From: Escherichia coli
GTDB lineage: Bacteria > Pseudomonadota > Gammaproteobacteria > Enterobacterales > Enterobacteriaceae
DNA: 64,000 nt
NCBI RefSeq assembly: GCF_003790525.1
Contig: NZ_CP033635.1
Direction: 5' to 3' (one strand)
The notes under the pieces were generated by a model, which did not search any database, had not been told where the DNA came from, and saw only the letters and a list, made by a program, of their open reading frames with translations. Position numbers and translations under genes: made by a program. Below are positions 17,116 to 35,396 of the stretch, piece after piece. Numbering within the stretch: position 1 is the stretch's first letter; every line of letters starts with the position of its first letter.

Positions 17116-17979
<864 letters not shown>

Positions 17980-18000
17980 TCTTTTTTGCTTGAAAAATAA

Positions 18001-18030
18001 AGTCTTAGCGTTCTGCGTTAAGACTTTTTT
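18001..18030 (+). terminator. Putative rho-independent terminator of kdsA
   Basis: Imperfect hairpin agtcttagcg..cgttaagact followed by T6, about 20 nt after kdsA stop. Confidence 0.6.
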
Positions 18031-18127
18031 CATGGGTGCCGGATACAAAAAAGGCCGCAGGCTATTACCTCTGCGGCCGGTTTCGGGCGCATATTGCCAT
18101 CACGGCAGCCTGACGCCCGTTTTCACC

Positions 18128-18235
18128 TTACTTCCGGTTACGCCACCAGCTGACAATCGCTGCGGTAATAATTCCCGCCAGGATCGGTGCTGCCAGGTCG
18201 TGCCAGAAAGTCATGGCAAACTGCGTGAGCGTCAT
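18128..18235 (-). CDS. ldr: Ldr-family small toxic peptide (35 aa)
   Basis: Reverse-strand ORF MTLTQFAMTFWHDLAAPILAGIITAAIVSWWRNRK; too short for ORF track; read directly. Confidence 0.8.
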   Translation of the reverse strand: MTLTQFAMTFWHDLAAPILAGIITAAIVSWWRNRK

Positions 18236-18282
18236 ATAGCCGCCTTGTTGTAATGACAACATTTTGCGGCTATTCTTGAATT

Positions 18283-18348
18283 GTTCTGGTTCAAGATTAG
18301 CCCCCGTTCTGTTGTCAGGTTGTACCTCTCAACGTGCGGGGGTTTTCT
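18283..18348 (+). ncRNA. rdl: Rdl-like antisense RNA (approximate boundaries)
   Basis: Plus-strand segment ending in cccccg...cggggg hairpin plus U-run, antisense to the ldr 5' leader; start inferred from expected ~66 nt length. Confidence 0.4.
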
Positions 18349-18662
18349 CTTTCCAGCAACCAATGCCACCAGGGATAAAGCCCCCGCAACATTGCGCCTC
18401 ACCGGATAACTCCGGCTTGGTGTGGATACTACGTCTCAATTCATCTTCACTTCATCCCTGAAATGTTTGCAATGAAGAGTGCATTCCGGTTTTTCAACAG
18501 CTGTTACAGTCGTTTCATGAGTGCTCTGGATGATGCTTCCAGCTCGGGTTGCCAATATTTACTTGCAGAAGAGATAAAGACAAAAAGGGCCGCAGGCTGT
18601 TACCCCTGCGGCCGGTTTCGGGCGCATATTGCCATCACGGCAGCCTGACGCCCGTTTTCACC

Positions 18663-18770
18663 TTACTTCCGGTTACGCCACCAGCTGACAATCACTGCGG
18701 TAATAATCCCCGCCAGGATCGGTGCCGCCAGGTCGTGCCAGAAAATCATGGCAAACTGCGCGAGCGTCAT
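18663..18770 (-). CDS. ldr: Ldr-family small toxic peptide (35 aa), second copy
   Basis: Reverse-strand ORF MTLAQFAMIFWHDLAAPILAGIITAVIVSWWRNRK. Confidence 0.8.
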   Translation of the reverse strand: MTLAQFAMIFWHDLAAPILAGIITAVIVSWWRNRK

Positions 18771-18818
18771 ATAGCCGCCTTGTTGTAATGACAACATTTT
18801 GCGGCTATTCTTGAATTG

Positions 18819-18884
18819 TTGATGGTTCAAGATTAGCCCCCGTTCTGTTGTCAGGTTTTACCTCTCAACGTGCGGGGGTTTTCT
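18819..18884 (+). ncRNA. rdl: Rdl-like antisense RNA, second copy (approximate)
   Basis: Same hairpin plus U-run terminator as copy 1 in repeat unit 2. Confidence 0.4.
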
Positions 18885-19175
18885 CTTTCCAGCAACCAAT
18901 GCCACCAGGGATAAAGCCCCCGCAACATTGCGCCTCACCGGATAACGCCGGCTTGGTGTGGATATTACGTCTCAATTCATCTTCACTTCATCCCTGAAAT
19001 GTTTGCAATAAAGAGTACATTCCGGCTTTTCAACAGCTGTTGCAGTGGTTTCGTGCAGGTTGTGGTACAGGCTCGCAATTCTGATTAACGACCTGTTCAG
19101 GTAGTATGAAGAAATACAATAAGCAGGAATTTATATTATCTCCCCCGATTTCTGTCATCAGAGGAGATATAACTG

Positions 19176-20276
19176 TCAGGCAAATATCGTCATCAAATAG
19201 GCGGCAAACAGTGCCAGATGCGCTGCGCCATTGAGCACGTTAGTTCGTCCGGTGGAGAAGGAGATATGGCACAGTACTAAAGAGGCCACCATCACCACCA
19301 TTTCTGGCGCACCAAGTGCAAACTGTAATTCGTTACCCGTCATAAAGGCAATTAACGTGACGACAGGTACGGTAAGCGAAATGGTTGCTAACACTGAACC
19401 AAAGAACAGATTCATCGCGCGCTGGACCTGGTTATTCAACACTGCTTTTAACGCACCTAAACCTTCCGGCGACAGAATCAACAGAGCCACCAGGAAGCCA
19501 GTAAAGGCGACAGGCGCATTCATGCTGTCGAGCAATGTCTCCAGCGAGCTGGCGTTCATTTTGGTCACCGCAATAACGGCAATCAGATGGATAATCAACC
19601 AGATAGCATGCCACAGGCTGCTATGGGCAGACGGTTTACCGTGATGCGGGTCGTCATCATCACTGTCATCTTCGTGCTCGTAGACAAACAAACTTTGATG
19701 CGTTTTGGTCTGGATCAGCAAAAATACGCCATACATTGCCGCAGAAATTAATGCTACCAGTAACGCCTGACCGGTTGAAAAATTCGCCGCAGGCAGAGCC
19801 ATTGGAAATACCAGTACGATTATCGCCAGGGGGAACAGCGCAATTAAATACTGCTTGATACCAAACAGATTCATATATTGGGTGGCAAACTTGCGTCCGC
19901 CCAACAATAATGAAAAGCCAACCAGCCCACCGGTAACAATCATAATGATTGAATAGAGCGTATCACGCATTAGCGTTGGCGCGGCGTCGCCGGTTGCCAT
20001 TAAAGCTGAAATCAAACTGACTTCAAGAATAACCACTGAAAGGCTAAGAATAAGCGAACCGTAAGGTTCTCCCAGGCGATGGGCTAATACGTCCGCATGA
20101 CGGACAACACTAAAGGCGCTACTTAAAATACCAATAAGAGCAAGAAGATTGATGCCAATGACCACTGGTAGTGTCTGGCTGCTTCCCCACAGGAACAGCA
20201 CTACCAGCGCCAGAACCGGGAAAATAAGCGAAGTCTCCTTGTGGCGGGTTTTTACCGCCTCTTGAGCATTTGACAT
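19176..20276 (-). CDS. chaA: Na+(K+)/H+ and Ca2+/H+ antiporter ChaA
   Basis: ORF track 19176..20363; trimmed to MSNAQEAVKTRHKETSLIFPVL, 366 aa. Confidence 0.9.
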   Translation of the reverse strand: MSNAQEAVKTRHKETSLIFPVLALVVLFLWGSSQTLPVVIGINLLALIGILSSAFSVVRHADVLAHRLGEPYGSLILSLSVVILEVSLISALMATGDAAPTLMRDTLYSIIMIVTGGLVGFSLLLGGRKFATQYMNLFGIKQYLIALFPLAIIVLVFPMALPAANFSTGQALLVALISAAMYGVFLLIQTKTHQSLFVYEHEDDSDDDDPHHGKPSAHSSLWHAIWLIIHLIAVIAVTKMNASSLETLLDSMNAPVAFTGFLVALLILSPEGLGALKAVLNNQVQRAMNLFFGSVLATISLTVPVVTLIAFMTGNELQFALGAPEMVVMVASLVLCHISFSTGRTNVLNGAAHLALFAAYLMTIFA

Positions 20277-20545
20277 TATGGTTATCCCTTTGCAGATGAA
20301 TTTATCGAAAATGTAAAAAATAGGTAGGAAAAATAACAGAAAGTGTCTGGATATCGGTAACATTTTACGAATTTTTACCCCGCTGTCGATTTTTTACTCA
20401 TCGGGCCATAAAAATAAGCAATGCGTTTAGACAATGTTTGTTTTAGCACTCCTTAAGAAGAGTCTGACATGAAAATTCTTATGTTTTGGCAAGAGTAGAT
20501 ATTGTTGACCACACTTAATGTTCAACTTTGTAAAAGGAGTCAACG

Positions 20546-34889: not shown

Positions 34890-35192
34890 GGGTGAGTTGT
34901 CGGATGCGCTTCGCTTATCCGAACTTCAGGGGAGGATATTTTAGGTCCGGTAAACGCGGTGCCATCGGGCAGAATTAGCTCGGAGTAACAGGTTTTGAGT
35001 ATTTCAGGAAGTAATGGTGGTGGGGGAAGGATTACTAGCGCTGCGCGCTTCACCCTTCGGATCGTTGCCTGCGGCAACGCTTTCTCGCTGGCGCTCGAGT
35101 CGCACCTTGGTCGAAGCTTCTCATCCCTCCCCGCATGGGCAGAATATTTAATTGCGGATTCGTTTGAGAGTTCACGGACTTTTGAAAAGTGA
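34890..35192 (-). repeat. tyrT operon distal repeat region (carries copies of the tRNA 3' end; expected location of rtT RNA / tpr)
   Basis: tggtggtgggggaaggatt (3' end of tRNA-Tyr, reverse complement) recurs at about 35012 and again at the tRNA starts about 180 bp apart; exact tpr/rtT boundaries not resolved. Confidence 0.5.

Positions 35193-35277
<85 letters not shown>

Positions 35278-35311: not shown

Positions 35312-35396
<85 letters not shown>

What the first reader, a model, noticed from the sequence alone, without database searches (positions are those of the whole stretch)
17980..19175. Two tandem LDR units with ldr/rdl type I toxin-antitoxin pairs; copy number differs from the K-12 arrangement
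Two near-identical repeat units of roughly 465 bp lie between kdsA and chaA. Each encodes a 35-aa Ldr-type hydrophobic peptide on the minus strand, a terminator hairpin and an Rdl-like antisense RNA on the plus strand. K-12 is described as having three LDR copies (A, B, C) at this locus; only two are present here, and the two peptides differ at three positions (T4A, T9I, A26V). Tandem repeats like this are prone to expansion and contraction and to assembly collapse.
Basis: partly seen in the sequence, partly recalled or inferred. Interest (0 to 1): 0.45.

Follow-up and report, generated by a model that had tools for sequence, protein, structure and literature searches.

The report
Two ldr/rdl toxin-antitoxin repeat units
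This is the well-known E. coli "long direct repeat" locus between kdsA and chaA, carrying two rather than K-12's three copies of a small membrane-toxin gene (ldr) and its antisense-RNA antidote (rdl); two copies is a common natural state among E. coli strains, so the finding is correct but ordinary.

Summary
Between kdsA (17125-17979, +) and chaA (19176-20276, -) lie two tandem LDR units, 18045-18579 and 18580-~19114. The period is 535 bp. The near-identical part is 475 bp at 96% identity, and the last ~60 bp are only about 51% alike. Each unit has an intact 35-aa Ldr toxin gene on the minus strand (Pfam Ldr_toxin, E 7.7e-25), a hairpin plus T-run terminator, and an Rdl antisense RNA on the plus strand (Rfam rdlD, 86 and 84 bits against a gathering score of 50). 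K-12 MG1655 has three units here (ldrA/B/C).

The two-copy form is not unusual. The 1401-bp region is 100% identical in 23 complete E. coli genomes, including SMS-3-5. In an evenly spaced sample of 60 of 5440 records, about 19 have two copies, 14 have one and 26 have three. Unit 1 resembles K-12 LDR-A (98.5%). Unit 2 is a mosaic with the chaA-proximal end of LDR-C, which fits unequal crossing-over. Assembly collapse is very unlikely but was not tested with reads.

Verdict: an already known type I toxin-antitoxin locus with routine copy-number polymorphism. Interest is low.

The parts
17125..17979 (+). kdsA (3-deoxy-8-phosphooctulonate synthase), left flank of the locus
   Evidence: 284-aa ORF. 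Annotated as kdsA in the identical SMS-3-5 stretch.
18000..18031 (+). A+T-rich hairpin (AAGTCTTAGCG/CGTTAAGACTT) followed by a T-run. Probably the kdsA terminator. Lies outside the repeat.
   Evidence: Read directly from the sequence. Not flagged by the scan, which requires at least 3 G-C pairs. Function inferred.
18045..18579 (.). LDR unit 1 (535 bp), the LDR-A-like, kdsA-proximal unit with an internal junction at its right end
   Evidence: Repeat families D1/D2. blastn self-match. 98.5% identical to K-12 LDR-A over the first 470 columns and 94-97% to the A/B right ends.
18580..19114 (.). LDR unit 2 (~535 bp). Near-identity to unit 1 ends at 19055. The last ~60 bp are the diverged chaA-proximal end, as in K-12 LDR-C.
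   Evidence: The right end is 94% identical to the K-12 LDR-C right end but only ~51% to the unit 1 right end.
18128..18235 (-). ldr-1, 35-aa Ldr toxin MTLTQFAMTFWHDLAAPILAGIITAAIVSWWRNRK (RefSeq WP_000176713.1 in SMS-3-5)
   Evidence: Pfam PF13940 Ldr_toxin, E 7.7e-25, full length 1-35.
18663..18770 (-). ldr-2, 35-aa Ldr toxin MTLAQFAMIFWHDLAAPILAGIITAVIVSWWRNRK (RefSeq WP_000170956.1 in SMS-3-5)
   Evidence: tblastn gives 91% identity to ldr-1.
18283..18348 (+). rdl-1 antisense RNA (66 nt), complementary to positions -113 to -48 of the ldr-1 5' UTR. Single-stranded 5' tail followed by a G+C-rich terminator stem-loop.
   Evidence: Rfam RF01813, 86.3 bits, gathering score 50, model positions 1-66. 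Fold -26.7 kcal/mol, z -4.55.
18819..18884 (+). rdl-2 antisense RNA (66 nt). Differs from rdl-1 in the 5' tail (1-nt insertion at 18821 plus a substitution) and at one apical-loop base (18858 T against 18322 G).
   Evidence: Rfam RF01813, 83.6 bits. Fold -27.3 kcal/mol, z -4.52. Differences listed.
18045..18078 (-). ldr-1 intrinsic terminator: stem GGCCGCAG/CTGCGGCC (18053-18060 / 18071-18078) followed by a T6 run on the minus strand
   Evidence: Read from the sequence. The hairpin appears in the mRNA fold. Not listed by the scan because the loop is longer than 8 nt.
18580..18613 (-). ldr-2 intrinsic terminator: 9-bp stem with 8 G-C pairs, then a T-run
   Evidence: Terminator scan hit 18613-18588 on the minus strand. 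Also seen in the fold.
18248..18276 (+). Putative rdl-1 promoter TTGTAA-17 nt-TATTCT, placing the start at 18283. The identical sequence at 18783-18811 would serve rdl-2.
   Evidence: Read from the sequence; 8 of 12 consensus matches, below the scan's threshold of 9. No differences between the units from 18227 to 18284. Inferred.
18236..18419 (-). Approximate ldr-1 5' UTR (the unit 2 equivalent is 18771-18955). The transcription start is not mapped here. Contains the Rdl target, a 20-codon ORF from TTG(-59) whose TGA overlaps the ldr ATG, and a conserved 25-codon ORF (MLRGLYPWWHWLLERENPRTLRGTT).
   Evidence: ORF scan. The roughly 370-nt mRNA length for ldrD is recalled from Kawano 2002 (Mol Microbiol), a paper I did not read here; this figure is recalled, not verified. 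Fold z-scores are -6.5 and -5.9.
19176..20276 (-). chaA (Na+/K+:H+ antiporter), right flank of the locus
   Evidence: Annotated in the identical SMS-3-5 stretch. ORF.

Best explanation
The region is the chromosomal LDR locus of E. coli in a natural two-unit allele. Each ~535-bp unit is a self-contained ldr/rdl type I toxin-antitoxin module.

How a unit works: the minus strand gives a structured ldr mRNA of roughly 370 nt (length recalled for K-12 ldrD, not measured here). It has a long 5' UTR, a 35-codon ORF for a single-pass inner-membrane peptide, and an intrinsic terminator. The peptide depolarises or permeabilises the membrane and stops ATP synthesis when overproduced. The plus strand gives a 66-nt Rdl RNA from a divergent, overlapping promoter. 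Rdl is perfectly complementary to positions -113 to -48 of the leader. Pairing with it blocks toxin synthesis indirectly, and RNase III cleaves the duplex.

The two units differ from each other by 19 changes in 475 nt. They correspond to an LDR-A-like first unit and a last unit with the LDR-C end. Copy number at this locus (1, 2 or 3) varies among strains through unequal homologous recombination and gene conversion between units.

Shown here: the repeat, intact genes and RNA motifs in both units, homology and synteny with K-12, and the population distribution of copy number.

Inferred from published work on K-12 LdrA/LdrD and RdlD: toxicity, antisense repression and RNase III involvement.

Predicted only: the promoters, the transcript ends, and the sequestration of the ribosome-binding site and AUG by pairing with the 3' UTR.
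For: - Repeat geometry and uniqueness in the window.
- Both peptides are intact. Pfam Ldr_toxin E 7.7e-25 for ldr-1; ldr-2 is 91% identical.
- Both Rdl RNAs score far above the Rfam gathering score and fold into the family's stem-loop, z about -4.5.
- Terminators.
- K-12 annotation of ldrA-C and rdlA-C at kdsA-chaA; unit identities of 96-98.5%.
- RefSeq annotates two 'type I toxin-antitoxin system toxin Ldr family protein' genes in the identical SMS-3-5 stretch.
- Copy-number polymorphism: in a spread sample of 60 records, 17 are full two-copy matches, 2 more are of the class where IS200C sits beside kdsA (one checked), 14 are one-copy and 26 are three-copy class. Spot checks found three copies in L004, L006, L007 and L008, two plus IS200C in L005, and one in L009.
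- Mosaic units: K-12 B has a C-like body with an A-like right end. Window unit 2 has the Rdl tail of the middle units of other arrays plus the right part of last units.
- Mechanism from the literature: Ldr toxicity and Rdl repression (PMC4147584, PMC8167048); LdrA as a membrane, pore-forming, ATP-depleting peptide (PMC12643268, PMC7472228); the ldrD-rdlD duplex as an RNase III substrate (PMC7373196); lineage-specific duplications and losses of ldr (PMC2887945).
- Predicted mRNA fold: pairing between the translation initiation region and the 3' UTR is kept in all 10 sequences compared, including K-12 ldrD.
Against: - No expression or toxicity data exist for these particular variants (T4/T9 in unit 1, V26 in unit 2).
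- The promoter scan found no sigma-70 site at its threshold. The rdl promoter I name matches only 8 of 12 consensus positions, and the ldr start is not mapped.
- The predicted long-range pairing rests on invariant pairs. Only 1 of 124 pairs shows a compensatory change, and the covariation term is +1.41.
- The leader-ORF coupling model (ldrX) is unproven in the literature (PMC4147584). The two units differ in the reading frame of that ORF.
- NCBIfam has no model that matches the peptides.
Confidence: 0.95

Rival explanations
1. The true locus has three (or more) units and one was collapsed during assembly, so the two-copy state is an artefact.
For: Tandem repeats of ~0.5 kb at 96% identity can collapse in short-read assemblies. 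About 43% of sampled complete genomes have three units here.
Against: The 1401-bp stretch is 100% identical in 23 independent complete genomes from different hosts and laboratories, including SMS-3-5. A 22-kb stretch around it is 100% identical in at least 8. About a third of sampled complete genomes have exactly two units. The two units differ at 19 of 475 positions and carry different right ends (internal junction against chaA-proximal end), as an intact first and last unit should. I could not inspect reads.
Confidence: 0.02
2. One or both units are decaying relics, with no functional toxin or antitoxin, and are kept only as repeated DNA.
For: Chromosomal type I loci are often degenerate, for example many hok copies (PMC2887945). 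No physiological role of the chromosomal ldr loci is established. Unit 2 has an insertion that changes the frame of the leader ORF relative to ldr.
Against: Both CDSs are intact, full length and match the Pfam model end to end. Both Rdl RNAs score 84-86 bits. The region from the ldr start through the Rdl promoter is identical in the two units. Terminators are kept. The unit 2 type of Rdl tail is widespread, including in the sole unit of a single-copy strain. In K-12 ldrD, which is experimentally toxic, the upstream ORF is likewise in frame.
Confidence: 0.05
3. The two-unit allele is ancestral and three-unit arrays such as K-12's arose from it by unequal crossing-over. The opposite reading is that two units are a contraction of an older three-unit array.
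For: For two units being ancestral: K-12 LDR-B looks like a chimera, with a C-like body (97.9% to C) and an A-like right end (97%), which is what an A|C x A|C unequal exchange would give. For contraction: other three-unit arrays carry position-linked alleles a-b-c shared across strains. Window unit 2 combines the b-type Rdl tail with the c-type right part, and the single unit of L009 combines an a-like left part, a b-type tail and a c-type right part.
Against: Only 8 loci were compared. Gene conversion blurs the history. No outgroup or strain phylogeny was used, so the direction is unresolved.
Confidence: 0.4

Closest known systems
E. coli K-12 LDR-A/B/C (ldrA-rdlA, ldrB-rdlB, ldrC-rdlC) at kdsA-chaA
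   Same: Same locus, orientation and unit length (535 bp). Same internal order: terminator, ldr CDS, leader with Rdl opposite it, upstream region. Unit identity is 96-98.5%. Apart from the substitutions T4 and V26, the two peptides match K-12 LdrA/LdrC (the T9 in ldr-1 is also in LdrB).
   Different: Two units instead of three. Peptide 1 has T4 (K-12 copies all have A4). Peptide 2 has V26 (K-12 copies all have A26). Unit 2 carries a 1-nt longer Rdl 5' tail (TTGATGG) that K-12 lacks but that is common in other strains.
E. coli K-12 ldrD-rdlD (bcsG-yhjV locus), the experimentally characterised member
   Same: Same architecture. Rdl, the translation initiation region and the 3' UTR segment predicted to pair with it are nearly invariant between ldrD and these units. 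The upstream ORF is in frame with the toxin, as in window unit 2.
   Different: A single copy at another locus. Peptide identity to these units is only 54-57%.
hok/sok (plasmid R1 and chromosomal copies)
   Same: A small membrane toxin. The antisense RNA targets the leader rather than the toxin's own ribosome-binding site. A leader ORF overlapping the toxin start has been proposed (mok / ldrX; PMC4147584, PMC8167048). A long-range fold enclosing the coding region is predicted. There is a weak Rfam sok match on the ldr leader.
   Different: The toxin family is unrelated (Ldr belongs with Fst, PMC2887945). The sok match is far below the gathering score (31 against 59 bits). Leader-ORF coupling is unproven for ldr and is not uniform between the two units.
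ibs/sib tandem type I toxin-antitoxin repeats of E. coli
   Same: Type I modules duplicated in tandem within one intergenic region, with copy number varying by lineage (PMC2887945). Small sequence differences in the antisense RNA set cognate specificity (PMC2943612).
   Different: A different toxin family. The Sib RNAs overlap the whole ibs ORF. Specificity among Rdl variants has not been tested.

Membership tests
LDR / ldr-rdl type I toxin-antitoxin (Pfam PF13940 Ldr_toxin + Rfam RF01813 rdlD) | 35-aa hydrophobic peptide with the Ldr signature (single TM helix, conserved Trp, basic C-terminus) that matches the Ldr_toxin profile | tested here: met
   PF13940 E 7.7e-25, residues 1-35 against model positions 1-35. 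The second peptide is 91% identical. Both ORFs are intact.
LDR / ldr-rdl type I toxin-antitoxin (Pfam PF13940 Ldr_toxin + Rfam RF01813 rdlD) | A cis-encoded ~60-66-nt antisense RNA (Rdl) opposite the 5' UTR of ldr, not overlapping the start codon | tested here: met
   RF01813 scores 86.3 and 83.6 bits against a gathering score of 50, full model, on the plus strand, 48-113 nt upstream of each ldr ATG.
LDR / ldr-rdl type I toxin-antitoxin (Pfam PF13940 Ldr_toxin + Rfam RF01813 rdlD) | Long direct repeat unit of ~530 bp homologous to K-12 LDR-A/B/C, in the kdsA-chaA intergenic region | tested here: met
   Period 535 bp. 96-98.5% identity to K-12 units. Same flanking genes.
LDR / ldr-rdl type I toxin-antitoxin (Pfam PF13940 Ldr_toxin + Rfam RF01813 rdlD) | The peptide is toxic when overproduced and Rdl relieves the toxicity | not testable with these tools
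   Known for K-12 LdrD/RdlD and LdrA (PMC4147584, PMC12643268). Not shown for the T4/T9 or V26 variants.
LDR / ldr-rdl type I toxin-antitoxin (Pfam PF13940 Ldr_toxin + Rfam RF01813 rdlD) | Both RNAs are transcribed (a stable ldr mRNA and a labile Rdl) | not testable with these tools
   Only a weak promoter-like site was read by eye (8 of 12 matches). The scan found none at its threshold. There are no expression data.
hok/sok-type regulation (leader-ORF coupling plus fold-back mRNA) | A leader ORF whose translation is coupled to the toxin ORF (overlapping stop and start) and whose initiation region lies under the antisense RNA | tested here: inconclusive
   In unit 1, the TTG(-59) ORF lies within the Rdl target and ends in TGA overlapping the ldr ATG (ATGA). 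In unit 2, a 1-nt insertion puts the same ORF in frame with ldr, so there is no stop/start overlap. The model itself is unproven (PMC4147584).
hok/sok-type regulation (leader-ORF coupling plus fold-back mRNA) | Long-range 5'/3' pairing that closes the translation initiation region | tested here: inconclusive
   Predicted in both units (z -6.5 and -5.9) and kept in 10 of 10 homologues including ldrD. The pairs are invariant, with 1 compensatory pair of 124.
hok/sok-type regulation (leader-ORF coupling plus fold-back mRNA) | Match to the Rfam sok model (RF01794) at the gathering score | tested here: not met
   31.4 and 27 bits against a gathering score of 59, on the ldr-sense strand.

The most novel reading that the evidence does not exclude
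The three position-linked alleles of the Rdl 5' tail and apical loop seen across strains (a = first units, b = middle or sole units and window unit 2, c = last units and K-12 B/C) might be specificity determinants. Each Rdl would then repress only its own ldr mRNA, as shown for Sib/Ibs. Gain or loss of a unit by unequal crossing-over would change the set of independently controlled toxins rather than merely the dosage. A related possibility is that the b-type insertion lets unit 2 make an N-terminally extended 55-aa Ldr from the in-frame TTG.
Probability: 0.12. Interest if true: 0.35.

Novelty: already known. Interest (0 to 1): 0.08.

Why it matters
It matters little beyond correct annotation. 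The locus should be annotated as two ldr/rdl type I toxin-antitoxin modules. RefSeq lists the two Ldr genes but no Rdl RNAs in the identical SMS-3-5 stretch. The one-, two- and three-copy polymorphism is a tidy example of unequal recombination in a short tandem array. It is also a caution for pangenome or copy-number analyses that take K-12 as the norm. Whether the number of units has any phenotypic effect, for example on persistence or membrane stress, is unknown.

Tried and rejected
- Tandem Repeats Finder returned nothing. The 535-bp period exceeds its 500-bp limit, so this says nothing against the repeat.
- The sigma-70 scan found no promoter at its threshold. I read a weak rdl promoter by eye and did not commit to an ldr promoter. 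A TAGTAT/TAATAT -10-like hexamer about 190 nt upstream of the ATG is only a guess.
- NCBIfam has no model that hits the 35-aa peptides. Pfam does.
- The Rfam sok match on the ldr leader is sub-threshold, and I did not treat it as membership.
- The primary papers on LDR comparative genomics (DNA Res 2002) and the ldr/rdl review (RNA Biol 2012) are not held. A literature search for strain-level ldr copy-number surveys found nothing specific beyond Fozo et al. 2010.
- I looked for extra LDR or Ldr-like copies elsewhere in the window with blastn and tblastn and found none.
- I considered a four-or-more-unit array as the source of the high 'places per genome' counts. The five genomes of the three-or-more class that I checked all had at most three units.
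- I could not obtain an exact census of copy number, because the search tool reports only summaries. The proportions come from a 60-row spread sample.

Full report
**1. What is in the sequence**

The 1196-bp gap between kdsA (17125-17979, +) and chaA (19176-20276, -) holds a direct repeat. Its copies start 535/536 bp apart. With blastn, unit 1 (18045-18579) matches itself and 18580-19055 (96.0% over 476 columns), and nothing else in the 64-kb window.

Beyond column ~475 the two units are only ~51% alike. Tandem Repeats Finder is blind to this period.

**2. Anatomy of a unit**

Each unit has the following parts, read left to right on the + strand:

- **ldr terminator.** A G+C-rich hairpin with a T-run on the minus strand, at 18078-18053 and 18613-18588.
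- **ldr CDS.** An intact 108-nt minus-strand CDS, at 18128-18235 and 18663-18770.
- **Leader.** The Shine-Dalgarno sequence and the 5' UTR.
- **Rdl.** A plus-strand 66-nt RNA, at 18283-18348 and 18819-18884. It matches Rfam rdlD end to end at 86.3 and 83.6 bits against a gathering score of 50. It folds as a free 5' tail plus a strong terminator stem-loop, z about -4.5.
- **Upstream sequence.** About 230 bp that must hold the ldr promoter.

The peptides are MTLTQFAMTFWHDLAAPILAGIITAAIVSWWRNRK and MTLAQFAMIFWHDLAAPILAGIITAVIVSWWRNRK. The first matches Pfam Ldr_toxin over its full length, E 7.7e-25. NCBIfam has no matching model.

**3. Comparison with K-12 and other strains**

K-12 MG1655 carries ldrA/rdlA, ldrB/rdlB and ldrC/rdlC in the same gap, also spaced 535 bp apart.

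- Window unit 1 is closest to LDR-A (98.5% over the first 470 columns) and has the 'internal junction' right end shared by A and B.
- Window unit 2 has the chaA-proximal right end of LDR-C (94%).

The 1401-bp stretch 17900-19300 is 100% identical in 23 complete genomes, including SMS-3-5. RefSeq annotates two Ldr-family toxin genes there, WP_000176713.1 and WP_000170956.1, and no Rdl. A 22-kb stretch around the locus is 100% identical in at least 8 genomes.

**4. Is two copies unusual?**

It is not. I took a sample of 60 records at even steps through the ranking of 5440 matching records.

| Class in the sample | Rows |
|---|---|
| Contiguous two-unit match | 17 |
| Match starts at query position 126; the one checked has two units with IS200C beside kdsA | 2 |
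| One unit | 14 (one checked) |
| Three-unit class | 26 (four checked, all exactly three) |
| Partial record | 1 |

The two-unit genomes include O157:H7, O55:H7, IAI39 and CE10. CFT073 has one unit. Fozo et al. 2010 already concluded that ldr loci evolve by lineage-specific duplication and loss (PMC2887945).

**5. How copy number changes**

I compared 21 units from 8 loci. The Rdl 5' tail has three alleles that go with position in the array:

- a, TT-CTG, in first units.
- b, TTGATG, in the middle units of four arrays, the sole unit of L009, and the second units of the window and L005.
- c, GCTG-T, in last units and in K-12 B and C.

Several units are mosaics. K-12 B has a C-like body with an A-like end. 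Window unit 2 has a b-type tail with the right part of last units. The sole unit of L009 is a-like on the left, b-type in the tail and c-type on the right.

This pattern is what unequal crossing-over and gene conversion between units would produce. I could not resolve whether two units are ancestral or a contraction.

The right end next to the flank is a diverged copy of the internal spacer (~51% identity without gaps). That is expected for the edge of a tandem array, which escapes homogenisation.

**6. How a unit most likely works**

From published work on K-12:

- LdrD and LdrA are toxic when overproduced.
- LdrA sits in the inner membrane and collapses ATP synthesis.
- RdlD relieves the toxicity.
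- The ldrD-rdlD duplex is an RNase III substrate (PMC4147584, PMC12643268, PMC7472228, PMC7373196).

[quoted passage not shown] Two indirect routes to repression are possible, and neither is proven.

**(a) Leader-ORF coupling.** This is the ldrX proposal of Gerdes and Wagner, as cited in PMC4147584 and PMC8167048.

- In unit 1 a 20-codon ORF starts at TTG(-59), inside the Rdl target, and ends in a TGA that overlaps the ldr ATG.
- In unit 2 a 1-nt insertion puts that ORF in frame with ldr, giving a 55-codon ORF. K-12 ldrD has the same in-frame relation.

The coupling geometry is therefore not uniform.

**(b) Fold-back.** Both predicted mRNAs are unusually stable, z -6.5 and -5.9. The SD/AUG segment pairs with a 3' UTR segment. 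Both segments are nearly invariant, even in ldrD, whose coding region differs strongly. The pairs show conservation only and no covariation.

The rdl promoter I name (TTGTAA-17-TATTCT, 18248-18276) matches only 8 of 12 consensus positions. The scan found no promoter at its threshold.

**7. Rivals**

- **Assembly collapse.** Not supported, because many independent assemblies give the identical sequence and the first and last units are distinct. Reads were not available.
- **Decay.** Not supported, because all coding and RNA elements are intact in both units. The segment from the ldr start through the rdl promoter is identical between them.

**8. Verdict**

The object is a textbook type I toxin-antitoxin repeat in a common allelic state. 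It is already known, and interest is low.

The only mildly open points are whether the Rdl tail alleles confer specificity, and what the frame change of the leader ORF means.

Noticed in passing
window 18385-18233 (-) and 18921-18768 (-): The ldr leaders give sub-threshold matches to the Rfam 'sok' model RF01794: 31.4 and 27 bits against a gathering score of 59, E 1.7e-4 and 2.5e-3. This may reflect a shared leader architecture with hok/sok, or chance.
   Followed up: no
window 18821 (+); ORFs 18830-18663 (-) and 18294-18232 (-): A 1-nt insertion in the Rdl-2 5' tail puts the upstream TTG ORF in frame with ldr-2, giving a 55-codon ORF. In unit 1 the same ORF ends in a TGA overlapping the ldr-1 ATG (ATGA). 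The in-frame type also occurs in K-12 ldrD and in many other strains.
   Followed up: partly
window 18392-18315 (-) and 18928-18851 (-): A 25-codon ATG ORF (MLRGLYPWWHWLLERENPRTLRG[T/K]T) lies in the ldr 5' UTR. It is present in every unit examined and, with three C-terminal changes, in K-12 ldrD. The DNA here is highly conserved anyway because it includes the complement of the Rdl stem, so this is not evidence of coding.
   Followed up: no
window 18236-18270 and 18096-18125 (-), and the unit 2 equivalents: The translation initiation region of ldr is predicted to pair with a 3' UTR segment. Both segments are nearly invariant between the A/B/C-type units and K-12 ldrD, although the CDS between them differs strongly. 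The pairs show conservation only and no covariation.
   Followed up: partly
L005 1939-2397 (isolate 366_BP0076, NZ_OZ121091.1): An IS200C transposase gene is inserted between kdsA and the first LDR unit of a two-unit locus. Two rows of the 60-row sample belong to this class.
   Followed up: partly
L006 middle unit (strain GPEC87-32-644, NZ_CM142762.1), spacing 526 bp: The middle LDR unit lacks 10 bp (TGACAACATT) of the ldr leader just upstream of the Shine-Dalgarno sequence. This is part of the segment predicted to pair with the 3' UTR and of the rdl promoter spacer, so the copy may be inactivated.
   Followed up: no
window 57210-57332 (-), 35015-35145 (-), 35196-35277 (-), 35315-35396 (-): The whole-window Rfam scan finds isrC (145 bits), an RtT element (119 bits) and two tRNA genes next to it. 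None of them is related to the finding.
   Followed up: no
window 19176-20363 (-): The mechanical ORF for chaA runs 395 codons from an upstream ATG. RefSeq annotates 366 codons, 19176-20276. This is only a difference in start-codon choice.
   Followed up: no
E. coli genome collection, plasmid-labelled records (e.g. H100, NZ_CP010135.1, 91.6 kb): About 29-30 LDR-like matches fall on records labelled as plasmids. H100 starts inside the kdsA-LDR region, which suggests a chromosomal fragment or a mislabelled contig rather than a plasmid-borne LDR.
   Followed up: no
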